A DNA stretch of 64,000 bases. Source: an uncultured Ignavibacteria bacterium. Its GTDB lineage: Bacteria > Zixibacteria > MSB-5A5 > CAIYYT01. The notes under the pieces are model-generated. The model worked only from the letters and a program-made list of their open reading frames with translations. It ran no database searches and was not told where the DNA came from. The translations under genes were made by a program, and so were the position numbers. This document shows positions 1,018 through 62,365 of the stretch, in pieces. Numbering within the stretch: the stretch's first letter is position 1; each line of letters begins with the position of its first letter. The DNA is taken from assembly GCA_964592145.1 (NCBI GenBank), contig CAZQBX010000003.1:78137-142136 (forward strand), read 5' to 3'.

Positions 1018-1099
1018 GTTATAATAGTACAAGCACGCCAATTGTGGGCTTAACATATCCGAGATTGTGAAAAAAGTAACAAAATCACTCAATTTTCGC

Positions 1100-1134
1100 T
1101 TGACAGTGTCGATTCTGTTAGTTAGCGTTAACTA
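1100..1134 (+). promoter_or_regulatory. Promoter (-35 TTGACA) overlapping a palindromic operator candidate TAGTTA-gcgt-TAACTA in front of the tetR-cytochrome operon
   Basis: Perfect 6-bp inverted repeat with 4-bp spacer at 1119-1134, about 50 nt upstream of the TetR start; typical position for TetR autoregulation. Confidence 0.35.
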
Positions 1135-1181
1135 CAACGTCGCCCACTTAGTCGAATATACACTGGGTTGATGGAGGAGAG

Positions 1182-1793
1182 ATGAAGTTAGCAGCCGAAG
1201 ACAGACGCCACCAAATACTTGAGGAAGCCACGAAGCTCTTCTCGGTTGAAGGTTACGACAAGGTTACAACCAAGCGATTGGCAGCTGCCTGCGGCGTAAC
1301 CGAGCCGGCGCTTTATCGTTACTTTGCGTCAAAGGAACTGATTTACGACGCTGTGCTGGATTCACTCGAGAGCCGTTTGCAATGCGACGATATCTATCCG
1401 GAATTAGCTGTCGAGAACGATATTGAGCTGCTTTTGTCGCGTTTAGCTACGCAGTTGCTTGACTGCTCGCAGAAGCATCAGGAAGTTTACCGACTTCTGC
1501 TTTATTCCGCCCTGGGAGGTCATGTAAAGGCGAGAGCTGTCTATCAGTCGATTCGCGGCCGGCACGCCAAGTTTCTGCAAGCTCAACTCGATCGACTTCA
1601 GCAACAGGGTCTGATTTCGGATTCAAACACGGAAATAACTGCCCGCAGTTTCATGGGTATGATCTTTGACTGCTCGTTGGGATTGACACTTTGGAAGAAC
1701 TCGCAAGGGCGTGTTTACCGGTGCGAGGAGTTGGTCGCCAATAATGTACCGATCTTCGCTGCGGGTCTTTGTCGGGCACTTCCCCAAAAATGA
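1182..1793 (+). CDS. TetR/AcrR-family transcriptional regulator
   Basis: N-terminal TetR HTH signature (ILEEATKLFSVEGYDKVTTKRLAAACGVTEPALYRYFASKE); 203 aa; RBS GGAGGAG upstream. Confidence 0.8.
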   Translation: MKLAAEDRRHQILEEATKLFSVEGYDKVTTKRLAAACGVTEPALYRYFASKELIYDAVLDSLESRLQCDDIYPELAVENDIELLLSRLATQLLDCSQKHQEVYRLLLYSALGGHVKARAVYQSIRGRHAKFLQAQLDRLQQQGLISDSNTEITARSFMGMIFDCSLGLTLWKNSQGRVYRCEELVANNVPIFAAGLCRALPQK

Positions 1794-1810
1794 AATCTAC
1801 TAATGAGGAT

Positions 1811-4441
1811 ATGGCAATGTCAGTGAAACAAATTATCAACGGCCACTTTCGCCTGCTGTTAATTTCCATAGTAGCGGCAATGACTCTCTTATTGAGCGGC
1901 CGCGCGCTGGTTTACGCCCAGGATGAAAGTGCAGTAAAGACGGACAACCAGCTGTGCTTGGATTGCCATTCGGATGAGACTCTCGAATCAGAGTCTGGTA
2001 AGTCGGTGTTTGTCAGCAGCGACAGCTTGCACAGTTCGGTTCACAAGAATATGGCGTGCCTGGATTGCCACAAGCAAGAAGGCGCGAACTTCGAGGATGT
2101 GCCCCACTTCACGCAGTATCAGCCGGTGCAGTGCGAGCCATGCCACAAGGTTGTAAGTGCGACCTGGATGGAGTACTTCTACAAGATGCTCAAGGGCAAG
2201 GGCAAGCAGGATATTCCCGACTGCAAAGAGTGTCATGGGACACACACGGCACAAAAAGAGCTAAGCATGAAGATCGTGTGCGAGCGTTGCCATCCCAAGC
2301 AAGCGACGGAATACAGGCAGAGTTATCACTTCCAGAAATATCAAGAGGATAACCGCAACTATCCGATTTGTACCACTTGTCACGATGCGCACTTCAAGTC
2401 CAAAAAAGAAGTCATGACGGAGACGGAGTACAAGCAGGAGATCGTCGATATTTGTTCCAAATGTCATCAACGCGACATTGAAACTTATGTTCACTCTCGG
2501 CATTTCCATGAAATGGAAGGCGGTAACACCAAGGCGCCGGTTTGCACAAGCTGTCACGAGAAGCACGATATCCGCAAGCCGTCCGATCCGAAATCACGAG
2601 TCGGCACGGCAATGATATCGGATGTGTGCAACAACTGTCACCCGGGGCACAAAGAGAGTCTTCATCGGGCTCCCGGAGTTGATCCCGGAACAATCTCGTG
2701 CGCCTCATGTCACACGGGCCACCAGACAGATATGGCTTCTATCAATGAGGCGATTTTCAAAGAGGGTGGAATTGCTAATCAGTGCAATATCTGCCACTCG
2801 GGCGAGCGACATACGAAGGAGAACCTGGCGCACGGACAGTTGATGATGTTAAACGCCGACGGTTCCGAAGCCAACTGCACAAAGTGTCATACCTACCATT
2901 GGAACTTGCCGGGATTGGACAATGATGACGTCAAGCATCGCCGGACAGAGTGCATCAATTGTCACGCAGAGGAGAATCGGCAGTACAAGCAGTCGATTCA
3001 TGGCCGCGCCCGCGCTCAAGGTATTATGGAAGCACCAACCTGTACCGATTGCCACGGCGAGATTGATATCAAGAAAACGAAGGAGCAGTTCACACCGGAG
3101 GGTGTGGTTGCTCTTTGCTCAAGGTGTCATTCGGACAAGGACAAGATGCTGAAGTTTCAGATCAATCCATATGTCGTCGAAGGCTACAAAGAAACCTATC
3201 ACGGTAAGCTTTTTGAAACCGGCACCGACGAAGTCAAATTCGCAGTCTGCACCAACTGCCATGGTTCACATTCGATCCAGGAACCGGCTGATTCGACCTC
3301 ATCGGTAGCGCGCGGACATATCGTCGAGACGTGCAAGCAGTGTCATCCCCGAGCCAACGATCGGTTTGTATCGTATCTGGTTCACCCCGTAAAACCGAGT
3401 TCGGCGGAATTGCAGGCTGGACTGGCGAGTGCCCGGGAAGACAGCGTTCTGACGTCGCTGGAACGCGATAGTAAAGACGAGGGTCGACAACTGACGGGCG
3501 GCTGGGGCAAATTCAACAACCTCGTCACAGGAATGATGACGGTTCTGTTGATCGCAGTATTGGGTGCATTTGGATTCCATACCATGTTGTGGTTCCAACG
3601 GGGAATCAGAACCCGGGTAGTCAAGAAGGAAGTCTACTATGGAAGAATTGACGGGTTCCACCGCTTCCTTCATATTCTGGTCAACATCAGTTTCCTGACC
3701 CTGGCGTTCACGGGCCTGCCTCAATCATATGCGCATACCGATCTGGCGAAATGGTTGTTTGCCAACGTGATGTCACTGCAGTCGGCACAGACTCTGCATT
3801 ACATCGCCGCAGCCATCACGGGATTCTACTTTCTTGCGCACCTGGTCTTCCTCGTGTTCAAGTTACGCAAATCGAGCATTCGCGAGATGTTGACCGGGCC
3901 GAATACGCTGATGTTCCGCAAGAAAGACTTGACTGACTTCGTGACACATCTGAAGTGGTTCTTCAACAAGGGTGCGCATCCGCAATTCGACCGTTGGACT
4001 TACTGGGAGAAGTTTGATTACTTCGCGGTTTTCTGGGGTGTGTTTGTCATCGGCCTCTCGGGTTTATTGAGATGGAAAGAGGAGTTCTTCGGAAACCTGT
4101 TGGGTGGCGGCGTTATCAGTCTCGCTGACACTGTTCATAAAGAAGAAGCGTTGTTGGCAACAGCCTTCATTTTCATAGTGCACTTCTTCAATACTCATTT
4201 GCGCGCCAGCAAATTCCCGATGGATGTGTCAGTCTACACCGGCCGGATATCGGAGAAGGAAATGATGGAAGAGCGTCCGTTGGAATACGAGCGACTTCGG
4301 GAAGCCGGCGAGTTGGAGCAACATCAGAAGAAGCCGCTCGGGCTGGTGTTGTCGATCATCTCGTATGTTTGGGGAACGATTGCGCTGTTGACAGGATTCT
4401 TCTTGCTGTTCTTGATCATACTGGGTCACCTGACGGCGTAG
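1811..4441 (+). CDS. Multiheme cytochrome c (17 CxxCH) fused to a C-terminal b-type-cytochrome-like membrane domain; CbcL-like quinol-oxidising cytochrome candidate
   Basis: Signal peptide after M1811/M1817. 17 CxxCH motifs counted (CLDCH x2, CEPCH, CKECH, CERCH, CTTCH, CSKCH, CTSCH, CNNCH, CASCH, CNICH, CTKCH, CINCH, CTDCH, CSRCH, CTNCH, CKQCH). C-terminal about 300 aa has several His-rich TM helices like HydC/FdnI cytochrome b. The ORF-track start at 1769 overlaps tetR, so the start was moved to the ATG with an RBS. Confidence 0.8.
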   Translation: MAMSVKQIINGHFRLLLISIVAAMTLLLSGRALVYAQDESAVKTDNQLCLDCHSDETLESESGKSVFVSSDSLHSSVHKNMACLDCHKQEGANFEDVPHFTQYQPVQCEPCHKVVSATWMEYFYKMLKGKGKQDIPDCKECHGTHTAQKELSMKIVCERCHPKQATEYRQSYHFQKYQEDNRNYPICTTCHDAHFKSKKEVMTETEYKQEIVDICSKCHQRDIETYVHSRHFHEMEGGNTKAPVCTSCHEKHDIRKPSDPKSRVGTAMISDVCNNCHPGHKESLHRAPGVDPGTISCASCHTGHQTDMASINEAIFKEGGIANQCNICHSGERHTKENLAHGQLMMLNADGSEANCTKCHTYHWNLPGLDNDDVKHRRTECINCHAEENRQYKQSIHGRARAQGIMEAPTCTDCHGEIDIKKTKEQFTPEGVVALCSRCHSDKDKMLKFQINPYVVEGYKETYHGKLFETGTDEVKFAVCTNCHGSHSIQEPADSTSSVARGHIVETCKQCHPRANDRFVSYLVHPVKPSSAELQAGLASAREDSVLTSLERDSKDEGRQLTGGWGKFNNLVTGMMTVLLIAVLGAFGFHTMLWFQRGIRTRVVKKEVYYGRIDGFHRFLHILVNISFLTLAFTGLPQSYAHTDLAKWLFANVMSLQSAQTLHYIAAAITGFYFLAHLVFLVFKLRKSSIREMLTGPNTLMFRKKDLTDFVTHLKWFFNKGAHPQFDRWTYWEKFDYFAVFWGVFVIGLSGLLRWKEEFFGNLLGGGVISLADTVHKEEALLATAFIFIVHFFNTHLRASKFPMDVSVYTGRISEKEMMEERPLEYERLREAGELEQHQKKPLGLVLSIISYVWGTIALLTGFFLLFLIILGHLTA

Positions 4442-4509
4442 TTCTGGTTTTGGAGTAATCGCACATTAGTTCGAATTTGTTTGGTTTTAGATATAACGGA
4501 GAGATCATC

Positions 4510-6489
4510 GTGAGACATATCAAGCGAGTTTGGGAGATGCCCCGGTTAACGGAGGCTCTGTTGGCCATCGCGCTGTTACTAAGCCTCCCGGCAATGCTGC
4601 CGGCGTCGAACAACGATGCGTGCATGGAGTGCCATTCGGATAATACTTTGACAGGGACAGACCGCGAAGGCAAAGAAGTCAGCATGTATGTGCATCTCGA
4701 TTCACTCGGCGCATCGCTGCACAGCGGACTTGACTGCGTGGATTGCCATGCCGACTTAGCCGGTGTAACCGACTACCCGCACGCAGATGCGCTGAAACCG
4801 GCGCAGTGCATAACCTGCCACGAGGATGTCAACACGGTGTTCATGACTTCGGCACACGGGTTGGCCCTGGACAATCCGAATTCACCAAACTGTCAATCGT
4901 GTCATGGCAGCCATAGTATCTTGCCGCAGTCGAATCCGGCATCATTGACTTCAGCGAAGAACTTGCCGCATACCTGTGCAACCTGCCATCACCGGATTGC
5001 GCTTAAGGCGGACCCGGATATTCGGATTGCGGATTCCTTTGACCGTTACATACGCGGTATTCACGCTGAAGGAATTCAGAAGGGAATTGGCTCAGCGGCC
5101 TCCTGCAATGATTGTCATGGCACACACGACATCAAGAAGGCTTCCGATCGCACTTCGATGGTCAACAAGCAGAATCTCCCCAAGACTTGCGCGAAATGCC
5201 ATAACGACATCAGCATTCAGTATTTTCGCGGGATCCACGGCAAGGCGCTGGAGGCTGGTATTCTCGACGCGCCGAATTGCACGGACTGTCACGGTGAGCA
5301 TGAGATTCGCCGCATCGGGGATCCCGATTCGCCGGTGAATCAGTCGAACTTAGCCGACTATGTGTGCGCCAAGTGCCACAATGATCCGCAGTTGATGGAG
5401 AAATTCGGGTTTACCGAAGGACGATTCACGTCTTATCAGGACTCATATCATGGTCTGGCGATTCGCGGCGGATCGATCAAGGCGGCGAATTGTGTTTCGT
5501 GTCATCGCGCGCACGATGTTCTGCCTTCGACAAATCCGGCGTCATCAGTCAGCAAAGAAAACATTGTCGAAACGTGCCAGACATGCCATCCGAAAGCGAA
5601 TCTGGCGTTTGCTACCAGCTACACTCACAAGACGGCGCAACAGGAGTTTAACCCGATCGATCGTTGGGTGCGGTTTGCTTACATACTCGCGATTGTGCTG
5701 GTCATCGGCGGCATGTTGGCGCATAACGGGATCATTCTCGGAGCCTTTGTTGTCCAGAAGCATCGGCAGAACAAGGCGCAGCCGACGGTGATGCGTTTTA
5801 CGGGCAACATGGTCTTTCAACACTTGGTGCTGACGGTCGCATTTATCACCCTGGTTATAACCGGTTTCGCACTGCGCTTTCCAGATTCCTGGTGGGTGGG
5901 AGTTCTCAACTTCTTCGGGATTTATGAAGATGCTCGTAGCGTGATTCATAGGATAGCTGCGGTGTTCTTGATCTACATCTCGATTCATCACGGCCTGTTC
6001 CTGTTCTTCTCGCAGCGCGGCAAAGAACAACTGCGCGGGCTGATGCCGGTGAAGCAGGACATAACTGACATTTTCCAGAATGTGAAGTTCCATCTGGGAA
6101 TGACGGACAAGCGCCCCGAATATGATATGTATGACTATACCGAGAAAGCCGAGTACTGGGCATTGGTGTGGGGTACGGTCGCGATGGTTCTCACTGGATT
6201 CGTGCTGTGGTTCCCGACGTTCTTCACGGGCTTCCTGCCGGCATGGGTTGTCAAGGTATCGGAGACCATTCATTATTATGAAGCGTGGTTGGCGACGTTG
6301 GCGATCGCGGTATTCCATTTCTTCTTTGTGATTTTCCATCCCGAGCAGTATCCGATGTCATTTGCCTGGATAACAGGCCGGGTGACCGAAGAATCGGTCA
6401 AACACCACCATCCGAAATGGTATCGCCGGATGTTCATGAAAAAGAACGGCGAGGCAAACAGTGTTGACGGTAAGAACGAAGAGAAATAG
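4510..6489 (+). CDS. Multiheme cytochrome c (11 CxxCH) fused to a C-terminal b-type-cytochrome-like membrane domain; paralogue of the upstream gene
   Basis: Signal peptide (MPRLTEALLAIALLLSLPAMLPA). 11 CxxCH motifs (CMECH, CVDCH, CITCH, CQSCH, CATCH, CNDCH, CAKCH x2, CTDCH, CVSCH, CQTCH). C-terminal TM helices with conserved His. GTG start at 4510 with RBS GGAGAG; alternative ATG at 4537. Confidence 0.8.
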   Translation: MRHIKRVWEMPRLTEALLAIALLLSLPAMLPASNNDACMECHSDNTLTGTDREGKEVSMYVHLDSLGASLHSGLDCVDCHADLAGVTDYPHADALKPAQCITCHEDVNTVFMTSAHGLALDNPNSPNCQSCHGSHSILPQSNPASLTSAKNLPHTCATCHHRIALKADPDIRIADSFDRYIRGIHAEGIQKGIGSAASCNDCHGTHDIKKASDRTSMVNKQNLPKTCAKCHNDISIQYFRGIHGKALEAGILDAPNCTDCHGEHEIRRIGDPDSPVNQSNLADYVCAKCHNDPQLMEKFGFTEGRFTSYQDSYHGLAIRGGSIKAANCVSCHRAHDVLPSTNPASSVSKENIVETCQTCHPKANLAFATSYTHKTAQQEFNPIDRWVRFAYILAIVLVIGGMLAHNGIILGAFVVQKHRQNKAQPTVMRFTGNMVFQHLVLTVAFITLVITGFALRFPDSWWVGVLNFFGIYEDARSVIHRIAAVFLIYISIHHGLFLFFSQRGKEQLRGLMPVKQDITDIFQNVKFHLGMTDKRPEYDMYDYTEKAEYWALVWGTVAMVLTGFVLWFPTFFTGFLPAWVVKVSETIHYYEAWLATLAIAVFHFFFVIFHPEQYPMSFAWITGRVTEESVKHHHPKWYRRMFMKKNGEANSVDGKNEEK

Positions 6490-6515
6490 GCTCAATCAAA
6501 TCTGAGGCGGAGACC

Positions 6516-6558
6516 AAAGGCCCTATCGGCATTATGCCGACAGGGCCTTTTCTTTGCC
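6516..6558. terminator. Bidirectional terminator hairpin between convergent genes (17-bp stem with one mismatch, AAAGGCCCTATCGGCAT/ATGCCGACAGGGCCTTT)
   Basis: Inverted repeat with T-run on the plus side and A-run on the other; sits between the cytochrome gene (+) and the M16 peptidase gene (-). Confidence 0.55.
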
Positions 6559-6574
6559 GTGAATACAGGGGTCG

Positions 6575-9500
6575 CTATTTGCTGACCATCCAGAAATCGC
6601 GTGGATACAACCGATAGAGCCTTGCACCCGGCTCAACGCTTTGAAGGTAGCGCTCGTACGACTCGAATTGCTTTTCCGGACCCACGACGAAATTGACCGC
6701 ATTGTACTTGGTCACGGATTCCAATCCGCTTGGACCATAGTCGGGCAATAACAGACCGTAAACTGCTTCCATTCGACCCTGGACGCGGTCGTAAAAGTCA
6801 GGTTGTTTACGAAGTTCGAGAATGCCTTGACGAAATTTGGCAACGCTCTGGGCAGGAATATTATCAGCCAGGTCGCGTGCGATCGCCTCCCCACGCACTT
6901 CGTAAGTCATTGCCGCCCGATTGGCATTGAATGCCTGCGCAATCGTATATTCGCCGAGCGCCGGATCATGCGGGGCTCGCTTTAGTTCGCCGACAACAAA
7001 CTGCATTGTCTGGGCGAGATCGGGACAACGTTCGGCATAGTAGACAATTCTTCCGGTTGATTCGCGGCTGCGCAGGCCGTTGGAATAGGCGAGTCCGGCG
7101 CCCCAGGTCTTCATGAACATGCTGTGCGCACCGCCACCTCCGTAGAGTCGAGCGGCGAGGAAATCGATCAGGCCATCGGGCGTGTGTTCGGCGAAGCGCG
7201 CACAATCAGCGGTGTTGACAAAGACGCCTGATCGGGTGTTTTCGTTAACAAGACCGACATAAACCGGTGTGCCGGTATCGGAGGCGCGCTCACGCAATCG
7301 ATTGGTTACCAGTGGTTCGGTGCTGTACTGCTGACGTACAGAAGGCTTGGGGTCAAGCTTACCAATGATCCCGGCAAGGCGTGGCATCAATGCATCCTTG
7401 GTGGCGGAACTGGAGATCATAAATGCGCGGACATTGTCGGTATGACGAAGCTTCTCAAGTACTCCGCGAATTTGAGCCAGTGCAGTGTTGTCATCCATTG
7501 AGGCATCTCGTGCCGTTTGCCAACAAAGGAACTGCCAGTCGGTCGCAAGAGACGCATCGGGAATGTCGCTCAACACGCGCTGCATATCGCGGGCGACCTC
7601 CTGAATCAGTCCAGCATTGCGCGGATCGGCGATCAGGTGCTTAGCCGTGAGTTCCACGACGATGGCGGATGACCAGGCAAACTTCTGGTCACCCGAGATC
7701 GTCGCCAGAAGCTCGCTGAGTTGTTTGCGATCAAGTCCTGCGCCTTTGGCGGCCAGCGACTCCATAAACTTTACGAAACTGTCGGGTTTATTCGGGTCAC
7801 CGGCATCCTTGAGCATCCATTTAATGCGATAGAGATTGAATGCTTTGGTCATGAAGCAATCAGTCGCCAGTAACAGCGGAACATCCTGACGCCAGTATGC
7901 GTCGGCCGGGCCTTCGACCCAGGACTCTTCGGAGCCGCGCATGGTGCTGCGCAGACCGGAGAGGGTGTAGTCGATAGCGTCGCGAATTCGGGGCAGATTT
8001 TCCGGCTCGAGATATGCATCAAAGAGAACGTCGTCAAGCCAATCAAGTGCCGCGAGTCCCTCGGCTTGCGTGCTTCCCGATGTGCGCACGACCAGTTCAG
8101 CGCGCTGGGTACGGTAATTGACACTGGTATAGGCAGAAAGCCCGGAGATCTCCGACCGCAGGCGACTTTGCATTTGGTCGAAGGTCAGTTTGCCGCTGTC
8201 GGAGATCACGCCGATGTCAGTCAAGACTGTTGGAAGAGCAGAGATATAGATCAATTCGTTTTCCGGAACGACATCGAGGTTGAAAGCCAAGCCGACGGTG
8301 GCATTGGTGATGTTTTCAAACTTGGAGGCCACGACCTGGACTTTGCCGGCAATCGTATCAACAGCATACTTGAGCGGATCATCGAGAGTCATCGGCGGAT
8401 TCTCGACGAAACCAGGCATTTGAATCGTTGCGGCGACCGAGTCGAGTTCAGCGGTTTGTGCATCATACTCGGCTTTGAATTGCTGAATCGCCTCATCTTC
8501 CGATGAAACCGAGTAAATAGTCTTAAGGTTGGCGATGTAGGCATCCAGGCGTGCCTGCCGCTCCGCTTCTTGGCGTCCGATGAGTTCTGGATTGGCGACC
8601 GCGGCAACGGCATAGGGAGGAGTCTCAATCAGTCGCCATGCGGCGATGTAATCGCGCCAGATATTCTTGCTGTTGCCGAGCTGTTGGCGCGCGAAGGCGA
8701 TTTCATCGGCAAACGCCAGTGAACGGCGGAAGCCACCCGTCTTGTGCAGACGCTGGGTGTTGGTCATCCATTGCGCACCGGAACTCCGTTCGCCGAAGCG
8801 CGGTGGCGAGTTAAGGAAGGTGCGCGTTGCGCGCTCGCGCGAGGTCACGCGTTCAAGTGCGCGTCGGTTGAATTCCTGCAGTTCGGAAGAGCCATCCGGC
8901 AGAGCAGCGATCTTGCCGATTTCGTCAAGAATGACCTTCCGAATCGAGTCAATCATCTTGGGAGTACAAGATTCGCGTTTGATTTCATCGAAATAGATAT
9001 GGATCGGGTTGCCCTTCTCATTGCTCACCCAGCTCCCGATGCCGGCGGCGCCGACGTCTATCTGGCGCGTCTGCGAGTCAATGAGCCGATTGTGCAGGCG
9101 CGAAGTCTGGTCGCCGGAGAGGTTTTGCACGAGCAGCTCCAGCAGGTAGCGATCGTTATTACCAAGGTTGAACTGCGCCGGCCAGGAATAGACAAGCAAG
9201 CCCGGATCGCTGGGAAGTTGAGCCGGGAAATCGACCAGTTTGATCGTTCCAGGTTCAGCGGCGGCAGGAGCAGGAACTCTGTCGTTCAATGAAGCCGGGT
9301 CATCAATCATGACAGCATCCGGCTCGATGCGGCTTAGGATCTGCGAAAGTCGTTCAAGGCAAGTGGAGATCGAAATATCATCGGCGATTGAAATAATTGC
9401 ACCCATGTTGTTGAGGTGGTAGGACCCCTCTTGAAAGCGACGGAGGTCGGCGGGAGTCATCGTGCGAATCGCCGGGGGATACCCACCCGATTCGTAGGAA

Positions 9501-10156
9501 AGCGGATGATTTTCGCCGTAGACCATCCTTGCCAGCTGCAGCATCAGGTCACCCCAGGGACTTTCAAAGGAACGGACCATCTCGTTGTAAACGGTGCCCT
9601 TCTCTTCAAGCCCGATGACACCGGAAGCCTGGTCGATAGTCAAACCAACGTGGCAGACTTCACGGCGGATTTCTTCATCAGAATAGTTGGGATGAACCAG
9701 CGCGTCGAGTTTCGTTTCGAATAGTTTGAAGAAATTCTCGGTACCGGAACCGCAGTTGAAATGGTAACAGGTCTGGAGTTGCATTGTGAAAGCCGAGCTC
9801 TCGCCGAGCAGCATGTCTTCCATGGATGCGACATAACGACCCTTGGTGCCCTTCCCCAACAAGAGATGTTCGCAGGTATGCGGTTCACCCTGATCGGACG
9901 GCGGGAGGGTATTGAACCACATAAAGGCCTGTGGGAGGGACTGAATCGTGAAGAGATCGGCGACAAATCCGGAGGGAATATGGCGAAAGCGCGCGCCGAT
10001 TGCGGTTCTCGCCTCGTTTTCGTAGATACATTCTGTGCGGAATTGACCGAATTTTTGATCCGGTTTGAGATCGCTGTAGCCAGCGGCAAATGCAGCACTG
10101 GAGAGCAGCAGTATCGTTGCTGTCAATAAAATGGCGGTTAGTTTCCTGTTGTACAT
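6575..10156 (-). CDS. Secreted M16-family (pitrilysin/insulinase-like) zinc metallopeptidase, very large (1193 aa)
   Basis: Signal peptide (MYNRKLTAILLTATILLLSSAAFA); inverted zinc motif HxxEH (HTCEHLLLG) near the N-terminus. Confidence 0.7.
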   Translation of the reverse strand: MYNRKLTAILLTATILLLSSAAFAAGYSDLKPDQKFGQFRTECIYENEARTAIGARFRHIPSGFVADLFTIQSLPQAFMWFNTLPPSDQGEPHTCEHLLLGKGTKGRYVASMEDMLLGESSAFTMQLQTCYHFNCGSGTENFFKLFETKLDALVHPNYSDEEIRREVCHVGLTIDQASGVIGLEEKGTVYNEMVRSFESPWGDLMLQLARMVYGENHPLSYESGGYPPAIRTMTPADLRRFQEGSYHLNNMGAIISIADDISISTCLERLSQILSRIEPDAVMIDDPASLNDRVPAPAAAEPGTIKLVDFPAQLPSDPGLLVYSWPAQFNLGNNDRYLLELLVQNLSGDQTSRLHNRLIDSQTRQIDVGAAGIGSWVSNEKGNPIHIYFDEIKRESCTPKMIDSIRKVILDEIGKIAALPDGSSELQEFNRRALERVTSRERATRTFLNSPPRFGERSSGAQWMTNTQRLHKTGGFRRSLAFADEIAFARQQLGNSKNIWRDYIAAWRLIETPPYAVAAVANPELIGRQEAERQARLDAYIANLKTIYSVSSEDEAIQQFKAEYDAQTAELDSVAATIQMPGFVENPPMTLDDPLKYAVDTIAGKVQVVASKFENITNATVGLAFNLDVVPENELIYISALPTVLTDIGVISDSGKLTFDQMQSRLRSEISGLSAYTSVNYRTQRAELVVRTSGSTQAEGLAALDWLDDVLFDAYLEPENLPRIRDAIDYTLSGLRSTMRGSEESWVEGPADAYWRQDVPLLLATDCFMTKAFNLYRIKWMLKDAGDPNKPDSFVKFMESLAAKGAGLDRKQLSELLATISGDQKFAWSSAIVVELTAKHLIADPRNAGLIQEVARDMQRVLSDIPDASLATDWQFLCWQTARDASMDDNTALAQIRGVLEKLRHTDNVRAFMISSSATKDALMPRLAGIIGKLDPKPSVRQQYSTEPLVTNRLRERASDTGTPVYVGLVNENTRSGVFVNTADCARFAEHTPDGLIDFLAARLYGGGGAHSMFMKTWGAGLAYSNGLRSRESTGRIVYYAERCPDLAQTMQFVVGELKRAPHDPALGEYTIAQAFNANRAAMTYEVRGEAIARDLADNIPAQSVAKFRQGILELRKQPDFYDRVQGRMEAVYGLLLPDYGPSGLESVTKYNAVNFVVGPEKQFESYERYLQSVEPGARLYRLYPRDFWMVSK

Positions 10157-10884: not shown

Positions 10885-10951
10885 TAAACGAGAACTCTAC
10901 TGCGGCGGCTGGGGACTAATAATATTAGCCTGACAGAGAAATTGCTTGGCT

Positions 10952-10963
10952 ATTTGGCCAAAT
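10952..10963. promoter_or_regulatory. Perfect 12-bp palindrome ATTTGGCCAAAT, operator candidate for the downstream ArsR/SmtB-family regulator
   Basis: Seen directly; shares the ATTTGG half-site with the palindrome at 11329-11352. Confidence 0.35.
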
Positions 10964-10992
10964 CACCGATATTAGGTTTGGAAGGAAAGGCG

Positions 10993-11313
10993 ATGGATAA
11001 GAAATCACAGGCACTATTCGAAGCACGCGCCAGGGTCATCAAAGCGATGGCGCATCCGACGCGATTGTTCATAGTCGACCAATTGTCAAAAGGTGAACGC
11101 TGTGTCTGCGAACTCACGGATATGATCGGGGCGGACACGTCGACGGTATCGAAGCACTTGTCGATTCTCAAGAATGCAGGAATCGTCTCTATGGAAAAGC
11201 GCGGATCGCAGGTGTTTTATCAGTTGCGGGTTCCCTGCATACTCAATTTCTTCGGGTGCGTTGAAGGTGTGTTGAAATCATCCGCGCGCGATCAGTTGCT
11301 GCTGGTGAAGTAG
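10993..11313 (+). CDS. ArsR/SmtB-family metalloregulatory transcriptional repressor
   Basis: HTH signature (HPTRLFIVDQLSKGERCVCELTDMIGADTSTVSKHLSILKNAGIV); ELCVCEL-type metal-site cysteines; start at ATG 10993 with GGAAAGG RBS. Confidence 0.75.
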   Translation: MDKKSQALFEARARVIKAMAHPTRLFIVDQLSKGERCVCELTDMIGADTSTVSKHLSILKNAGIVSMEKRGSQVFYQLRVPCILNFFGCVEGVLKSSARDQLLLVK

Positions 11314-11328
11314 TATTTTTTTGTGAAA

Positions 11329-11352
11329 TCATTTGGCGATTTGACCAAATGA
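11329..11352. promoter_or_regulatory. Inverted repeat TCATTTGG-N8-CCAAATGA, operator candidate between the arsR-family gene and the permease gene
   Basis: Perfect 8-bp arms seen directly; same ATTTGG half-site as the 10952 palindrome. Confidence 0.35.
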
Positions 11353-11383
11353 CGGACAAAGAGGATTCAGTTAGGCGATTATT

Positions 11384-12691
11384 ATGACTGTGACCTGGAA
11401 AGCGGAGTGGAAGGTGCTGGCGCTGATCGCGGCGGTATTCTTGGCGTTCTACTTTCTTCCGGTCGATGCACCGCGAGTGGGAAAATCACTTCAGGAGGCG
11501 CTGGCGCTGACCCAGTGGTATGCGCGGGAGCATGTGCTGCTCTGCCTGATACCGGCTTTCTTCATTGCCGGGGCGATCGGTACATTCGTGCGCCAGGAGT
11601 CGGTCATGAGGTATCTTGGCGCTAAAGCCAACAAGATGCTGGCGTATGGAGTGGCTTCAGTATCCGGAACAATTCTGGCCGTCTGCTCCTGCACGGTTCT
11701 CCCGCTATTCGCAGGAATCTACCGTATGGGTGCGGGGATCGGGCCGGCCTCGGCATTCTTGTATTCCGGGCCGGCGATCAACGTGCTGGCGATTATCCTG
11801 ACCGCGAGAATTCTCGGATTGGAGCTTGGAATTGCCCGGGCAGTCGGTGCGGTGGTGTTCAGCATCCTGATTGGACTGGCAATGCATTTCATTTTCCGCA
11901 AAGATGAAGCAGCCCGCAGTCAGATACAGATGCAATTGTCGGAATCGCAGGCGAGTCGGCCGCTGTGGCAGACGGCGACATTCTTTGCCCTACAGATTCT
12001 GATATTGATATTTGCGACTTGGAGCGCGCCGCAGGAAGGCGTTGGATTCTTTGCAGCGGTCTATTCAGTCAAGTGGAAGTTGACTGGAGTGGCAGCGATT
12101 GGACTCGGAGTTGTATTAGTGCGTTGGATGCAGGTTGCTCTCTGGAAAGTTGTTGCGGGAGGAGCAGTAGTATTGGCGGTATCGTTGATCTTCCGCGAGC
12201 ATCCCTTATTTGCGTTTGTGTCCGGGGTGTTAGTGATCTCGATATTGACAGCGATGGATAAAGGCGAGGGCGGCGAGTGGTTTGCACAGACGTGGGGATT
12301 CGCCAAACAGATTCTGCCACTGTTGTTTTTCGGTGTGCTGGCGGCAGGATTTCTGCTCGGTCGTCCTGGTGAAGAGGCGTTGATCCCGCCGGAATGGATT
12401 AGCTCGGCGGTGGGCGGTAATTCGGTGTGGGCAAACTTGTTTGCGTCGGTGGCAGGCGCATTCATGTACTTCGCAACCTTGACCGAGGTACCGATTTTGC
12501 AGGGACTGATTGGGTCAGGCATGGGTAAGGGGCCGGCGTTATCACTCCTGCTGGCGGGACCGGCTTTGTCATTGCCGAGTATGCTTGTACTTAACGGGAT
12601 CATGGGAGCGAAGAAGACTGTCGTTTATGTGCTGCTCGTCGTAGTGATGTCGACTGTGACGGGATTGTTGTTTGGATTGGTTTATGGATAG
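11384..12691 (+). CDS. Putative permease of the DUF318/ArsP-like family (two-domain, 10-12 TM)
   Basis: Hydrophobic throughout; conserved CSC-x-LP motif (GTILAVCSCTVLPLF) as in ArsP-type organoarsenical permeases; classical ArsR-permease-thioredoxin gene order. Confidence 0.65.
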   Translation: MTVTWKAEWKVLALIAAVFLAFYFLPVDAPRVGKSLQEALALTQWYAREHVLLCLIPAFFIAGAIGTFVRQESVMRYLGAKANKMLAYGVASVSGTILAVCSCTVLPLFAGIYRMGAGIGPASAFLYSGPAINVLAIILTARILGLELGIARAVGAVVFSILIGLAMHFIFRKDEAARSQIQMQLSESQASRPLWQTATFFALQILILIFATWSAPQEGVGFFAAVYSVKWKLTGVAAIGLGVVLVRWMQVALWKVVAGGAVVLAVSLIFREHPLFAFVSGVLVISILTAMDKGEGGEWFAQTWGFAKQILPLLFFGVLAAGFLLGRPGEEALIPPEWISSAVGGNSVWANLFASVAGAFMYFATLTEVPILQGLIGSGMGKGPALSLLLAGPALSLPSMLVLNGIMGAKKTVVYVLLVVVMSTVTGLLFGLVYG

Positions 12692-12700
12692 GAGGAAGAT

Positions 12701-12934
12701 ATGAAGTTAGTTCAAGTGCTCGGAACAGGTTGTCCCAAGTGCAAGAAACTTGAGGAAATGACCAGACAGGCTGCGAAAGAAGCCCATGTCGAGTGCGAGG
12801 TGCTGAAGGTCACTGATATCAACGCTATCGTCAACATGGGCGTGATGGTGACTCCTGCCCTGGCGGTCGATGGTGTGGTCAAGGTTTCTGGGCGCGTTCC
12901 GTCAGTTGACGAAATCAAGGCAATGATTCAGTAG
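12701..12934 (+). CDS. Small thioredoxin-fold protein (redox-active disulfide protein 2 type)
   Basis: 77 aa; CxxC (GTGCPKCKK) near the N-terminus; strong RBS AGGAGGAAG; follows the DUF318 permease as in known operons. Confidence 0.7.
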   Translation: MKLVQVLGTGCPKCKKLEEMTRQAAKEAHVECEVLKVTDINAIVNMGVMVTPALAVDGVVKVSGRVPSVDEIKAMIQ

Positions 12935-12961
12935 CGGAAGTACAAGCGAGGAGATCAGGAG

Positions 12962-13429
12962 ATGAGCATTAAGTCGATCATAACAGTAGCACTGTTGATT
13001 TTTGTCGCGGTGAGTTTGACCGTGGTTGTGATGCGCAGCACCTCGGCACCCGCAGTCGGAACGTCGCAGGGTTCTGAGATTGCCGCTGACGGCGACAAGA
13101 TCGTTGCCTACTATTTCCACCGTACGCAGCGCTGCCCGACCTGCAACCGAATTGAAGCGTTAACGCATGAGATCATCCATCAGAACTTCGCGGAAGAGTT
13201 GTCGTCAGGCAAACTTGAGCTGCGCGTCGTCAACGTGGAAAGTCCCGGCAACGAGCATTTTGAAACTGATTTCAATCTTGTTTCACAATCGATCATTCTT
13301 GTAGACTTCAAGACCGGCAAACAGATGAAGTGGAAGAATCTCGATCAGATTTGGGAGTTGATCGGGACCGAAACAGAATTTCGTATTTATGTTGAGTCGG
13401 AAATTCGCGGTTTTATGGGAGCTTCGTAA
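12962..13429 (+). CDS. Membrane-anchored thioredoxin-fold protein (CPTC motif)
   Basis: N-terminal TM helix; CxxC (RCPTCNRIE); function is inferred only. Confidence 0.4.
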   Translation: MSIKSIITVALLIFVAVSLTVVVMRSTSAPAVGTSQGSEIAADGDKIVAYYFHRTQRCPTCNRIEALTHEIIHQNFAEELSSGKLELRVVNVESPGNEHFETDFNLVSQSIILVDFKTGKQMKWKNLDQIWELIGTETEFRIYVESEIRGFMGAS

Positions 13430-14124
13430 TGGACGGAATCTTTGTGGCCATGTCGACAGCGCTGTGGCTGGGGATTCTGACATCGATTAGCCCTTGCCCG
13501 CTGGCGACCAATATTGCCGCAGTGTCGTTTATTGGAAGGCGATTGGACCGACCTTCGCTGGTGGTGGCTTCGGGTGCGCTTTATACGCTTGGACGGACCA
13601 TTGCCTACGTCAGTCTCGGGGCAATCATCGTCGGTGGCGCCTTATCTGTTCCGGAGCTTTCACGATTTCTGCAGAAGTACATGAATCAGATTCTCGGGCC
13701 CCTGCTGATAATTGCCGGGATGTTTCTACTAAACTTGATCAGCTTCACGAACTCCGGATCAGCGGCGGGAGAACGTCTGCAGCAACGAATCGGCGCGATG
13801 GGAATCTGGGGCGCCGTACCGCTGGGAATGCTTTTTGCCTTGTCATTCTGTCCGATCTCGGCGGCGCTCTTCTTTGGTAGTCTCATTCCTCTATCTATCG
13901 AACGGGAATCTGCGGTGCTGTTGCCGTTGGGCTATGGAATTGGAACGGCGCTTCCGGTGATGGCGCTCGGCGTAGTGCTCGGCGTTAGTGCGCGTTCCAT
14001 CGGCGGATTGTTTAAGCAACTAACGCGGATTGAAAAGTGGGCGCGGCTGATTACAGGAATTACATTCCTGCTTGTGGGGCTTTATTTGAGTCTGGCTTAC
14101 ATTTTCCGAGTTACTTTTTTCTAA
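13429..14124 (+). CDS. CcdA/DsbD-transmembrane-domain-like thiol-disulfide transporter
   Basis: 6 TM; conserved Cys-Pro in TM1 (ISPCPLATN) and Cys in TM4 (FCPISAALFF), typical of the DsbD_2/CcdA family; start overlaps the upstream stop (TAATGG). Confidence 0.6.
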   Translation: MDGIFVAMSTALWLGILTSISPCPLATNIAAVSFIGRRLDRPSLVVASGALYTLGRTIAYVSLGAIIVGGALSVPELSRFLQKYMNQILGPLLIIAGMFLLNLISFTNSGSAAGERLQQRIGAMGIWGAVPLGMLFALSFCPISAALFFGSLIPLSIERESAVLLPLGYGIGTALPVMALGVVLGVSARSIGGLFKQLTRIEKWARLITGITFLLVGLYLSLAYIFRVTFF

Positions 14125-14175
14125 AAACAATTGACAGCATGAAACCCACTGCTATATTTCGCCATATAACGAATT

Positions 14176-14550
14176 ATGAGCGATGAATTTAACAATTTGA
14201 CGGAGATTGCCCAGGCGCTTTCGGATAGCGGCCGGGTACGAGCATTGATGTCGCTGCGCAAGCAAGAGCTTTGCGTGTGCCAGTTAATTGACCTGCTGGA
14301 TTTGGCGCCGTCGACAGTATCGAAGCATATGGCAATACTGAAGCAGGCTGGTTTGGTTGAGACCCGCAAAGAGGGGCGTTGGGTGTATTATCGACTAAGC
14401 GAGCCTGAGAAGGGATCAGCGGCGGCACAGGCACAACAGTGGGTTCAAGAAGCACTGTCACGCTCCCCGCAAATTCGTGAAGACGACCGTCGGTTGCGCG
14501 AAATACTCGCGACCGAGCTTGAGGTGATCTGCTGCAGGATAAGGTCTTGA
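14176..14550 (+). CDS. arsR: ArsR-family arsenic-responsive repressor
   Basis: ELCVCQLIDLLDLAPSTVSKHMAILKQAGLV HTH with CVC metalloid site; first gene of the arsR-arsC-acr3 operon. Confidence 0.8.
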   Translation: MSDEFNNLTEIAQALSDSGRVRALMSLRKQELCVCQLIDLLDLAPSTVSKHMAILKQAGLVETRKEGRWVYYRLSEPEKGSAAAQAQQWVQEALSRSPQIREDDRRLREILATELEVICCRIRS

Positions 14551-14978
14551 AATTGAAAGTCCTGTTTTTGTGTACCGGTAATTCGTGCCGATCTCAAATG
14601 GCTGAAGGCTGGGCGCGGCAGCTTAAGGGCGCCACCATTGAGGCATATTCAGCCGGAACAAAGGCACAGGGTCTGAATCCGCTTGCAGTCAAAGTAATGG
14701 CGGAAGCGGGCGTAGATATTTCCGGACATCGTTCCAAGCACGTGGCGGAACTGATGCATGTCGACTTCGATTATGTGGTTACAGTCTGCGATCACGCTCA
14801 GGAAGCGTGTCCCATATTTCCCGGCAAAGCAAAGGTCATTCATCGCGGTTTCGATGACCCGCCGCGCCTGGCTGAAGGTGCGAAGTCGGAGGAAGAAGCA
14901 TTGAGACACTACCGCCGCGTCCGCGATGAGATTCGCGATTACATCCTCACTGTTCCGGAGGCGCTCCTTGCCCGTTGA
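14547..14978 (+). CDS. arsC: Arsenate reductase, LMW-PTP/thioredoxin-coupled type
   Basis: P-loop [14 protein letters not shown] at the N-terminus plus downstream Cys residues; 143 aa; 4-nt overlap with arsR. Confidence 0.8.
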
Positions 14979-33873: not shown

Positions 33874-33881
33874 TATTCACC

Positions 33882-35645: not shown

Positions 35646-35661
35646 TGTCCCAATACCTTCC

Positions 35662-62354: not shown

Positions 62355-62365
62355 GATTGCAGCTC

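What the first reader, a model, noticed from the sequence alone, without database searches (positions are those of the whole stretch)
1100..6489. TetR-controlled tandem of two CbcL-like multiheme cytochrome c / cytochrome b fusion proteins (17 and 11 hemes)
Both genes encode a periplasmic multiheme c domain (17 and 11 CxxCH motifs counted by eye) fused in one polypeptide to a C-terminal polytopic His-containing b-type-cytochrome-like domain. This is the architecture of Geobacter CbcL-type inner-membrane quinol oxidases that feed extracellular electron transfer. Two paralogues of different heme number under one TetR regulator is unusual. A palindromic operator candidate lies in the promoter. 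The pair might represent redox-potential-tuned alternative conduits.
Basis: partly seen in the sequence, partly recalled or inferred. Interest (0 to 1): 0.55.

Follow-up and report, generated by a model that had tools for sequence, protein, structure and literature searches.

The report
TetR operon with paired CbcL-type cytochromes
A Zixibacteria operon encodes a TetR repressor and two inner-membrane proteins that each fuse a long chain of c-type hemes to a two-heme cytochrome b; both are relatives of the Geobacter quinol oxidase CbcL, and this long/short pair turns out to be an old, widespread unit, not an oddity.

Summary
TetR (1182-1793), gene A (1817-4441, 17 CxxCH) and gene B (4510-6489, 11 CxxCH) form one unit, with a promoter upstream and a strong terminator downstream. 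Every cysteine in A and B lies in a heme motif.

Both C-terminal halves adopt the FdnI cytochrome-b fold. All four heme-b histidine ligands are present, and they are invariant in 117 relatives. A is a true CbcL-clade protein: it has the CbcL core (9 hemes, b domain, sixth helix) plus an internally duplicated 8-heme extension. B belongs to a sister clade with five helices.

The claim that the pairing is unusual does not hold. Long A-type genes have a B-type neighbour in 42-48% of adequately flanked metagenomic loci, in all gene orders, and the two co-diversify. Canonical 9-heme CbcL genes stand alone.

Only the TetR link is specific to this Zixibacteria clade. The palindrome TAGTTA-N4-TAACTA overlaps the likely -10 box and is conserved in four orthologous loci.

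Heme-number variation (3-23) in this family was published in 2018. Redox-potential tuning and the direction of electron flow remain untested. This is a modestly interesting variant of a known kind.

The parts
1065..1084 (+). Conserved A-rich block TTGTGAAAAAAGTAACAAAA, 15-35 nt upstream of the -35 box. Possibly an UP element or a second regulator site.
   Evidence: Nearly invariant in the four orthologous Zixibacteria promoters, while the surrounding intergenic DNA has diverged. Function not tested.
1100..1105 (+). -35 hexamer TTGACA
   Evidence: A perfect consensus hexamer. TTGAC is invariant in all four orthologous loci; the sixth base differs in L003.
1119..1134 (+). Candidate TetR operator: palindrome TAGTTA-GCGT-TAACTA
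   Evidence: The only match in the 64-kb window. Identical in the window, L001 and L002. L003 keeps both half-sites and changes only the spacer (TAGTTA-GTGA-TAACTA). Binding not tested.
1123..1128 (+). Probable -10 hexamer TAGCGT, 17 nt after the -35 box and inside the operator
   Evidence: Read from the sequence. Inference only; the promoter scan did not list it because the hexamer is weak.
1182..1793 (+). TetR-family regulator, 203 aa, first gene of the operon
   Evidence: PF00440 TetR_N at 58.2 bits against a 24-bit cut-off. The C-terminal domain matches no family above cut-off. Orthologues sit directly upstream of gene A in L001-L003.
1817..4441 (+). Gene A: 874-aa CbcL-clade fusion protein. 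Order: signal/anchor, 17-heme c domain, linker helix, FdnI-type di-heme b domain, extra C-terminal helix. Alternative in-frame starts at 1790 and 1769.
1955..3346 (+). Periplasmic c-type domain of A with 17 CxxCH motifs. Hemes 1-8 are an internal duplicate of the CbcL-like nine-heme module formed by hemes 9-17.
   Evidence: Motif positions. N-terminal versus C-terminal halves give 23-29% identity, E about 1e-13. CbcL residues 37-598 align to the second half of the heme domain plus the membrane domain. All 17 motifs and 14 further His are invariant in 37 relatives.
3521..4441 (+). Membrane domain of A: six helices. Heme-b ligands are His619, His661, His774 and His789 (874-aa numbering). Extra conserved His588 (linker helix) and His675.
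   Evidence: 43-52% identical to Geobacteraceae, Desulfuromonas and Ignavibacteria CbcL b-domains, E about 1e-55, including the last helix. The four ligand columns are His in 117 of 117 sequences. The AlphaFold model matches FdnI 1KQF_C with target TM 0.73.
4510..6489 (+). Gene B: 659-aa sister-clade fusion protein. Order: signal peptide, 11-heme c domain, linker helix, FdnI-type di-heme b domain. No sixth helix; the C-terminus HHHPKWYRR resembles that of FdnI.
4621..5589 (+). Periplasmic c-type domain of B with 11 CxxCH motifs: two N-terminal hemes plus a CbcL-like nine-heme module.
   Evidence: CbcL residues 31-567 align to B residues 85-630 (650-aa numbering). All 11 motifs and 11 non-motif His are invariant in 37 relatives, consistent with bis-His ligation.
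5683..6489 (+). Membrane domain of B: five helices. Heme-b ligands are His438, His480, His588 and His603 (659-aa numbering). Extra conserved His405 and His493.
   Evidence: phmmer against E. coli FdnI 1KQF_C gives E=2e-10, with His aligned to FdnI His18, His57, His155 and His169. PF01292 at 51.8 bits. The model matches 1KQF_C with target TM 0.80.
6508..6556 (+). Intrinsic terminator: a G+C-rich hairpin followed by UUUUCUUU. It lies between convergent genes and closes the operon.
   Evidence: RNA fold gives -29.4 kcal/mol, z = -6.3, and 0 of 200 shuffles fold as well. The simple terminator scan missed it.

Best explanation
This is a three-gene operon, tetR-A-B, running from a sigma-70-type promoter (-35 at 1100-1105) to an intrinsic terminator (6508-6556).

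TetR is the first gene. It most likely represses its own operon by binding the 16-bp palindrome that overlaps the -10 box, and releases it on an unknown signal (inferred).

A and B are two self-sufficient inner-membrane oxidoreductases that link the menaquinone pool to the periplasm. Each has three elements:
- a Sec-exported chain of bis-His c-type hemes in the periplasm (17 in A, 11 in B);
- one linker helix that returns the chain to the cytoplasm;
- an FdnI-fold four-helix bundle that holds two b hemes stacked across the membrane.

By analogy with FdnI and CbcL, the quinone site lies near the cytoplasmic-side b heme. Menaquinol oxidation would then release protons inside the cell and send electrons outward through heme bC, heme bP and the c-heme wire to periplasmic or outer-membrane partners. 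The reverse direction, reducing quinone with periplasmic electrons, is equally possible for this fold.

A is a deep member of the CbcL clade whose nine-heme module was doubled by internal duplication. B belongs to a sister clade that lacks the sixth helix. The two are an ancient, co-inherited pair. In this Zixibacteria lineage they have been placed under one TetR-controlled promoter.

Shown: anatomy, homology, ligand conservation, synteny, operator conservation, terminator. Inferred: repression, quinone-site location, direction of flow, partners.
For: - Heme motifs and helices.
- A/B paralogy: 28% identity, E=1e-63, across both domains.
- FdnI alignment with all four ligand His, which are invariant in 68 CbcL, 26 A-type and 23 B-type sequences.
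- FdnI is the only significant solved-structure match for both models, TM 0.73 and 0.80.
- Full-length homology to Trichlorobacter thiogenes CbcL and to Geobacteraceae b-domains.
- The b-domain tree separates a CbcL-type clade (9, 17 and 19 hemes) from a B-type clade.
- TrmB-TetR-A-B synteny in three further Zixibacteria contigs with differing downstream genes.
- Operator, -35 box and A-rich block conserved within otherwise diverged intergenic DNA.
- Terminator.
- Published model of CbcL as a menaquinol oxidase with a cytoplasmic-side quinone site (PMC9129911).
- The most conserved A/CbcL motif, RWTYWEKFDYFAVFWG, lies in the cytoplasmic loop leading into the third helix of the FdnI-type bundle. 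From memory of the 1KQF structure paper, which I did not re-check, this region contributes to the HQNO/menaquinone pocket in FdnI.
Against: - No expression, binding or biochemical data exist for any part.
- The window holds no other CxxCH-containing ORF of 90 aa or more, so no outer-membrane porin-cytochrome conduit or periplasmic cytochrome sits nearby and the electron partners are unknown.
- A's b domain falls just under the Pfam cut-off and alone gave no sequence hit in the PDB. Its assignment rests on homology to B and CbcL and on the fold match.
- The palindrome has only 6-bp arms and is not significant by itself.
- The -10 hexamer is weak.
- The AlphaFold heme domains are apo models of moderate confidence.
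Confidence: 0.62

Rival explanations
1. A and B are alternative conduits tuned to different acceptor redox potentials, like ImcH, CbcL and CbcBA in Geobacter, and each is used in its own potential window.
For: - Geobacter uses several inner-membrane quinol oxidases according to acceptor potential, and CbcL itself is gated by potential after translation.
- A and B have different membrane domains and heme-chain lengths.
- In other lineages CbcL-type genes cluster with further quinol-dehydrogenase types, namely NrfH/NapC-domain multiheme proteins.
- 11 of 30 pairs are convergent or divergent, so in those genomes the two genes can be regulated separately.
Against: - Here both genes share one promoter and one terminator, so any switch could not be transcriptional.
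- Nothing in the sequence reports heme potentials.
- Persistent adjacency and co-diversification suggest the two are needed together, which fits poorly with an either/or choice.
Confidence: 0.25
2. A and B are subunits of one heteromeric complex. Their b-domains associate in the membrane and their c-domains together form a 28-heme periplasmic assembly.
For: - A B-type gene lies within 3 kb of 13 of 31 well-flanked long A-type genes, and within the locus in 15 of 31. Random placement would give well under 1% by my estimate.
- Tandem gaps are often short.
- A and B b-domain distances correlate across 31 loci: r=0.54, with 0 of 2000 permutations reaching it.
- Heme numbers are sharply conserved in each partner.
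Against: - Each protein has a complete set of b-heme ligands and its own heme wire, so neither needs the other.
- About half of long A-type genes have no B-type neighbour.
- 11 of 30 pairs are not co-directional, which is unusual for obligate subunits.
- Canonical CbcL works alone.
- No multimer prediction could be run.
Confidence: 0.18
3. The pair works in opposite directions. One member reduces menaquinone with electrons from periplasmic or extracellular donors, conserving energy as in Fdn-N. The other oxidises menaquinol toward acceptors. Together they give a two-way, cytochrome-only link between the quinone pool and the periplasm.
For: - Homologues of this family occur in both Fe(III) reducers (CbcL, MtrH) and Fe(II) oxidisers (MtoC), and no sequence feature distinguishing direction was found.
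- B's membrane domain, including its C-terminus, is closer to the quinone-reducing FdnI than A's is.
- Fe(II) oxidation was considered more likely than Fe(III) reduction for the Zixibacteria RBG-1 Mtr-like cluster.
Against: Purely inferential. Both proteins keep the same ligand geometry and the same predicted quinone-site side, and if both sites face the cytoplasm a loop between them conserves nothing. No donor-side or acceptor-side enzymes are linked to the operon.
Confidence: 0.1
4. The proteins feed periplasmic reductases (for example nitrite, tetrathionate or metalloid reductases) and have no role in extracellular electron transfer.
For: - In Ignavibacteria, Bacteroidota and Chlorobiota, 9-heme CbcL-type genes lie about 2 kb downstream of an 8-heme gene; the one tested (L053) belongs to the octaheme tetrathionate-reductase family (553 bits).
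- L006 embeds the pair in a cluster with NrfC/NrfD-like genes and cytochrome c biogenesis genes.
- No outer-membrane conduit is present in this window.
Against: - No reductase gene is linked to the operon in any of the four Zixibacteria loci.
- A 17-heme wire is longer than needed to reach a soluble periplasmic enzyme (inference).
- Zixibacteria genomes do carry MtrAB-like clusters elsewhere.
Confidence: 0.25

Closest known systems
CbcL (GSU0274) of Geobacter sulfurreducens and its Desulfuromonadia orthologues
   Same: Same order of parts: signal peptide, periplasmic bis-His multiheme c domain, linker helix, HydC/FdnI-type di-heme b domain and, for A, a sixth C-terminal helix. A aligns to a cultured CbcL orthologue over CbcL residues 37-598 (33% identity, E=3e-101). 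Its b domain is 43-52% identical to those of CbcL-family proteins and shares the motifs RWTYWEKFD(Y/F)xAVFWG and EALLATxFIFxVHFFNTH.
   Different: CbcL has 9 hemes and about 615 aa, and stands alone in about 70 loci with no B-type partner and no orthologous TetR. A carries 8 extra N-terminal hemes from an internal duplication. B has 2 extra hemes, lacks the sixth helix and falls outside the CbcL-type clade.
CbcL/MtrH/MtoC family as surveyed by Zhong & Shi 2018 (PMC6295460)
   Same: That survey reports homologues in 15 phyla, 416-1034 aa long, with 3-23 CxxCH motifs and mostly six helices. Its supplementary table lists 19-heme proteins of about 920-950 aa (Ignavibacteria, Handelsmanbacteria, Gemmatimonadetes, Omnitrophica) and 11-heme proteins. 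Gene A fits this family.
   Different: No Zixibacteria CbcL-type protein is listed there; only an ImcH homologue of RBG-1 appears. The text describes no paired long/short arrangement, no separate five-helix sister clade and no TetR linkage.
FdnI, the gamma subunit of E. coli formate dehydrogenase-N (PDB 1KQF chain C); HyaC/HydC more distantly
   Same: Same four-helix di-heme b fold. It is the only significant solved-structure match for both models. All four His ligands align. B also shares the C-terminal HHPxWY motif.
   Different: FdnI receives electrons from a separate iron-sulfur subunit (FdnH) whose own helix packs against it. Here a fused multiheme c domain and a fused linker helix take those places. 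There is no molybdopterin or iron-sulfur partner in the operon.
TetR-family autoregulated operons (TetR/TetA, AcrR/AcrAB type)
   Same: An N-terminal TetR HTH domain and a 16-bp palindrome in its own promoter overlapping the -10 box, conserved across orthologues.
   Different: The regulator is co-transcribed as the first gene instead of being divergently transcribed. The ligand domain matches no characterised TetR C-terminal family above cut-off. The target is a respiratory module, not an efflux pump.

Membership tests
CbcL/MtrH/MtoC family (fused multiheme c / di-heme b quinone-pool oxidoreductases) | N-terminal export signal followed by a periplasmic domain with multiple CxxCH motifs (3-23 reported) | tested here: met
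   A has 17 motifs and B has 11. Both have hydrophobic N-terminal signal segments.; family range.
CbcL/MtrH/MtoC family (fused multiheme c / di-heme b quinone-pool oxidoreductases) | C-terminal HydC/FdnI-type cytochrome b domain with conserved heme-b His ligands | tested here: met
   All four FdnI ligand columns are His in A, in B and in 117 of 117 relatives. Fold match to 1KQF_C: TM 0.73 for A and 0.80 for B. Pfam PF01292: B 51.8 bits (passes), A 28.8 bits (just under the 30.1 cut-off).
CbcL/MtrH/MtoC family (fused multiheme c / di-heme b quinone-pool oxidoreductases) | Significant full-length sequence homology to a bona fide CbcL | tested here: met
   Trichlorobacter thiogenes CbcL orthologue (listed as a CbcL homologue in the PMC9129911 supplement) against A: 33% over 617 columns, E=3e-101. 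Against B: 30% over 578 columns, E=1e-69. G. sulfurreducens GSU0274 itself was not retrieved.
CbcL/MtrH/MtoC family (fused multiheme c / di-heme b quinone-pool oxidoreductases) | Six transmembrane helices after the heme domain (linker, four-helix bundle, C-terminal helix) | tested here: inconclusive
   A has six, and its last helix is colinear with that of CbcL. B has five and a hydrophilic C-terminus. So the feature is met for A and not met for B. The 2018 survey also lists a few five-helix homologues.
CbcL sensu stricto (Desulfuromonadia orthologue group) | Nine c-type hemes, about 615 aa, placement within the 9-heme clade | tested here: not met
   A has 17 hemes and B has 11. In the b-domain tree A lies in a 17-heme group outside the 9-heme clade, and B lies in a separate clade (neighbour-joining, no bootstrap).
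CbcL sensu stricto (Desulfuromonadia orthologue group) | Required for reduction of acceptors below about -0.1 V; potential-dependent inactivation | not testable with these tools
   These are physiological properties known from Geobacter genetics and electrochemistry.
FdnI/HydC cytochrome b (PF01292) | Four-helix bundle with one His on helix 1, one on helix 2 and two on helix 4 | tested here: met
   A: His619, His661, His774, His789. B: His438, His480, His588, His603. Helix assignment follows the alignment to FdnI and the hydropathy profile.
FdnI/HydC cytochrome b (PF01292) | Works with a separate periplasmic iron-sulfur subunit and a catalytic subunit | tested here: not met
   No such genes are in the operon or its conserved neighbourhood. 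A fused heme-c domain takes that place.
TetR-family repressor with operator in its own promoter | N-terminal TetR HTH domain | tested here: met
   PF00440 at 58.2 bits against a 24-bit cut-off.
TetR-family repressor with operator in its own promoter | Palindromic operator overlapping promoter elements and conserved in orthologous promoters | tested here: met
   TAGTTA-N4-TAACTA at 1119-1134 overlaps the candidate -10 box. The half-sites are invariant in four loci while the flanks diverge. It is unique in the window.
TetR-family repressor with operator in its own promoter | Demonstrated DNA binding, and release by a ligand | not testable with these tools
   Needs EMSA or footprinting and a ligand screen. 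The C-terminal domain matches no known TetR_C family above cut-off.
NapC/NirT/CymA/ImcH-type quinol dehydrogenases | NapC/NirT-type (PF03264, NrfH-like) membrane-anchored tetraheme module | tested here: not met
   No PF03264 match at E<=0.01 for A or B. The NrfH model gives only marginal partial hits, 16-17 bits against a 134-bit cut-off. Such proteins occur as neighbours in other lineages.

The most novel reading that the evidence does not exclude
The long A-type and short B-type fusion cytochromes are an obligate two-part machine. They would act either as one heteromeric complex with 28 c hemes and 4 b hemes reaching far across the periplasm, or as an opposed pair (quinone reductase plus quinol oxidase) that gives many little-studied and uncultured phyla a cytochrome-only, two-way link between the quinone pool and the outside. 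Persistent adjacency through many gene rearrangements, co-diversification and sharply fixed heme numbers do not exclude this.
Probability: 0.15. Interest if true: 0.65.

Novelty: new variant of a known kind. Interest (0 to 1): 0.38.

Why it matters
How bacteria outside the Proteobacteria and Desulfuromonadia connect their quinone pool to periplasmic or extracellular redox partners is largely unknown. Zixibacteria and neighbouring candidate phyla are abundant in sediments where iron and sulfur cycling matter.

This locus shows three things:
- CbcL-type oxidoreductases in these phyla usually carry doubled heme wires.
- They frequently travel with a sister-clade partner that has not, to my knowledge, been singled out.
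- Standard annotation often misses the cytochrome b half of the long form, which scores below the Pfam cut-off and is named "cytochrome c3 family protein".

The compact TetR-operator-A-B unit is small enough to synthesise and test in Geobacter or Shewanella mutants. That would address whether heme-chain length or membrane-domain type sets the direction or the potential window. If the pair proves to be an ordinary redundancy, the value is limited to better annotation.

Tried and rejected
- **G. sulfurreducens CbcL itself.** I tried to obtain it by searching with OCR fragments of a published alignment. G. sulfurreducens was not among the 80 loci returned.
- **A's b domain against the PDB.** phmmer alone found nothing. 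The fold search did find FdnI.
- **Heme domains against the PDB.** Only weak NrfB, MtrC or HAO hits, and no structural match.
- **Simple scans.** The repeat finder, promoter scan and terminator scan all missed the operator, promoter and terminator. These were established by alignment and folding instead.
- **ATGA overlap.** I considered the overlap of the TetR stop with an ATG of gene A as evidence of translational coupling. I rejected it because the better start is 1817 and the overlap is absent in L002 and L003.
- **Link to the arsenic-resistance genes.** Rejected, because that neighbourhood is shared only with L001.
- **TetR as a general partner of CbcL-type genes.** Rejected. Only distant, differently placed TetR-like genes appear, in about 6 of 160 other loci.
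- **Other checks.** Rfam found nothing in the window. Literature searches found no description of the pair, but the library is limited to open-access papers and preprints.


Full report
**What is there**

Three co-directional ORFs occupy 1182-6489 on the + strand.
- The first is a 203-aa TetR-family protein (PF00440, 58 bits).
- The second (gene A) has exactly 17 CxxCH motifs, which use all 34 of its cysteines.
- The third (gene B) has 11 motifs, which use all 22 of its cysteines. There are no variant motifs in either.

Gene starts needed correction.
- A most likely begins at ATG 1817. GAGGA lies 7 nt upstream, and the 94%-identical orthologue P0121 is annotated from the same Met. This gives 874 aa.
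- B most likely begins at GTG 4510. GGAGAG lies 6 nt upstream, giving a standard signal peptide, MRHIKRVWEMPRLTEALLAIALLLSLPAMLPA|SNN, and 659 aa.

Downstream of B, a hairpin of -29.4 kcal/mol (z = -6.3) followed by UUUUCUUU closes the unit. The closest homologues are named Candidatus Zixiibacteriota.

**The membrane domains are real di-heme cytochromes b**

- B matches PF01292 above its cut-off. A falls just below it (28.8 against 30.1 bits).
- B aligns to E. coli FdnI (1KQF chain C, E=2e-10), with His opposite FdnI His18, His57, His155 and His169.
- A and B are full-length paralogues (28% identity, E=1e-63), with the same four His aligned.
- In an alignment of 68 nine-heme CbcL-type, 26 A-type and 23 B-type b domains plus FdnI, those four columns are His in every sequence.
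- AlphaFold models (pLDDT 75.5 and 77.7 overall, 80-93 in the membrane parts) have FdnI as their only significant solved-structure match, with target TM 0.73 and 0.80. HyaC is a distant second.

Two further His are conserved: one near the cytoplasmic end of the linker helix in all three groups, and one on helix 2 in the A and B types. Their role is unknown.

**Relation to CbcL**

CbcL is described as a nine-heme periplasmic domain (residues 30-279) joined to a six-helix, di-heme b domain. I recovered genuine CbcL-family sequences by two routes. The first was partial proteins found with fragments of a published alignment. The second was 80 genomic loci found with one of those proteins.

- A's b domain is 43-52% identical to those of Geobacteraceae, Desulfuromonas and Ignavibacteria (E about 1e-55). 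It is colinear through the extra C-terminal helix. B's is about 36% identical (E about 1e-21).
- The full-length CbcL orthologue of Trichlorobacter thiogenes (615 aa, 9 hemes) aligns to A residues 280-865 (33%, E=3e-101) and to B residues 85-630 (30%, E=1e-69).
- So both proteins contain a CbcL core of nine hemes plus the b domain. A adds eight N-terminal hemes, and B adds two.
- A's extension is an internal duplicate of the nine-heme module (E about 1e-13).
- A neighbour-joining tree of b domains rooted on FdnI separates two clades. One is a CbcL-type clade holding the 9-, 17- and 19-heme forms, including A. The other is a B-type clade. The tree has no bootstrap support values, so branch order within clades is tentative.
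- B lacks the sixth helix and ends like FdnI, with HHHPKWYRR.

**The pair is not unusual; the TetR link is**

TrmB-TetR-A-B is conserved in three other Zixibacteria contigs whose downstream genes differ. Outside that clade, long and short fusion genes also lie together:
- tandem in a Hydrogenedentes MAG;
- convergent in L004;
- tandem behind NrfCD-like genes in L006;
- in B-then-A order in another Zixibacteria MAG and in an Ignavibacteria MAG.

An unbiased metagenome scan with an A-type alignment gave 71 long A-type loci.
- Of the 31 with at least 3 kb on both sides, 13 have a B-type gene within 3 kb and 15 have one within the locus.
- Orientations among all 30 pairs: 10 A-then-B, 9 B-then-A, 9 convergent and 2 divergent.
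- Distances between A b domains and between B b domains correlate across 31 paired loci (r=0.54; 0 of 2000 permutations reach it).

In contrast, none of about 70 nine-heme CbcL-type loci has a B-type neighbour or an orthologous TetR. The pairing is therefore old and frequent, though not universal. Only the TetR arrangement is particular to this Zixibacteria clade.

**Regulation**

The intergenic region holds a perfect -35 box (TTGACA, 1100-1105). After a 17-nt spacer comes a weak -10 box (TAGCGT, 1123-1128), which lies inside the palindrome TAGTTA-GCGT-TAACTA (1119-1134).

Alone the palindrome is unremarkable. Aligned with the three orthologous promoters, it is identical in two. In the third it keeps both half-sites and changes only the spacer, while the surrounding DNA has diverged. 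The -35 box and an A-rich block at 1065-1084 are also conserved.

This is the expected signature of a TetR operator that blocks the promoter. Binding and the releasing signal are untested, and the ligand domain matches no known family.

**Likely mechanism**

By homology with FdnI and CbcL, each protein passes electrons between a quinone site near the cytoplasmic-side b heme and a periplasmic heme wire. I take the FdnI site from my memory of the 1KQF structure paper.
- Outward flow (menaquinol oxidation) would release protons inside the cell and be helped by the membrane potential. This suits low-potential acceptors.
- Inward flow would conserve energy, as in formate dehydrogenase-N.

The family includes members from both iron reducers and iron oxidisers, with no known sequence marker of direction.

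The window contains no other CxxCH-containing ORF of 90 aa or more, so the partners are unknown. A Zixibacteria genome has been reported to carry an MtrAB-like cluster elsewhere. In other lineages, CbcL-type genes sit beside NrfH-domain multiheme proteins, and in L053 beside an octaheme tetrathionate-reductase-family gene. A role in periplasmic respiration is therefore a live alternative to extracellular electron transfer.

**Novelty and score**

Zhong & Shi (2018) already reported CbcL/MtrH/MtoC homologues in 15 phyla, with 3-23 heme motifs and lengths of 416-1034 aa. Their table includes 19-heme and 11-heme proteins, but no Zixibacteria CbcL-type protein.

I found no description of four things: the recurrent long/short pairing, the five-helix sister clade as a separate group, the internal duplication in the long form, or the TetR operon. 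The searchable library is incomplete.

I rate this a new variant of a known kind, with interest 0.38. It would not surprise a specialist much, but it offers a compact, testable natural pair.

Noticed in passing
window 30112-36141 (- strand): NuoE-like (159 aa) and NuoF-like (587 aa) genes, followed by a 1253-aa fusion of 2Fe-2S, GltD-like flavoprotein, NuoG-type iron-sulfur and molybdopterin-oxidoreductase domains. It looks like a soluble NAD(P)H-linked formate-dehydrogenase-like or SfrAB-like complex in an unusual single-chain form.
   Followed up: partly
window 1065-1084: The A-rich block TTGTGAAAAAAGTAACAAAA upstream of the -35 box is conserved in all four Zixibacteria promoters. It could be an UP element or a second regulator's site.
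   Followed up: partly
L001 12734-14676: In the closest relative (A is 94% identical), the B orthologue is spread over three reading frames at 94-96% identity over most of its length, which implies two frameshifts. This is either a pseudogene or assembly indel errors.
   Followed up: partly
L087 4798-7669; L134 294-3218; L163 5570-8506: The 19-heme domain and the CbcL-type b domain are separate adjacent ORFs here (about 670-680 aa plus about 280-300 aa). These are either natural unfused versions of the A-type protein or frameshifts.
   Followed up: no
window 10942-16041 (+ strand): An arsenic-resistance cluster: ArsR, ArsP-type permease, DsbD-like protein, a second ArsR, a low-molecular-weight-phosphatase-type ArsC and an ACR3/SBF transporter. 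It is shared with L001 only.
   Followed up: partly
window 16081-17028 (- strand): A MerR-family regulator fused to B12-binding domains, resembling the CarH light-responsive regulator.
   Followed up: no
window 58920-63490 (- strand): A PAAR-motif protein (374 aa) is followed by a 1144-aa ORF with no Pfam match, possibly a secreted toxin or effector module.
   Followed up: no
window 6575-10156 (- strand): A 1193-aa secreted protein, convergent with gene B, has only a faint M16-peptidase hit and no NCBIfam match. It is conserved next to the operon only in L001.
   Followed up: no
L004 14851-16830; L088 11135-13201: 17-heme proteins of about 660-690 aa with an N-terminal NrfH/NapC-like module lie beside the A/B genes. 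They represent a third type of long-wire quinol dehydrogenase clustered with the pair.
   Followed up: partly
L053-L063, L075 (about 2 kb upstream of 9-heme CbcL-type genes): An 8-heme gene of about 480-550 aa recurs upstream of the 9-heme CbcL-type gene in Ignavibacteria, Bacteroidota, Chlorobiota and Myxococcota loci. The one tested (L053) belongs to the octaheme tetrathionate-reductase family at 553 bits.
   Followed up: partly
L073 4630-5244; L089 6067-6774; L129 2711-3319; L156 12748-13341: Distantly related TetR-like genes lie near CbcL-type or B-type genes in a few other lineages, in different arrangements. This could be chance, given how common TetR regulators are.
   Followed up: no
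window 3578-3580 and 3839-3841 (A His588, His675); 5722-5724 and 5986-5988 (B His405, His493): Two conserved His residues have no counterpart in FdnI: one in the linker helix and one on helix 2, both near the cytoplasmic face. They might contribute to the quinone site or bind an additional cofactor.
   Followed up: no
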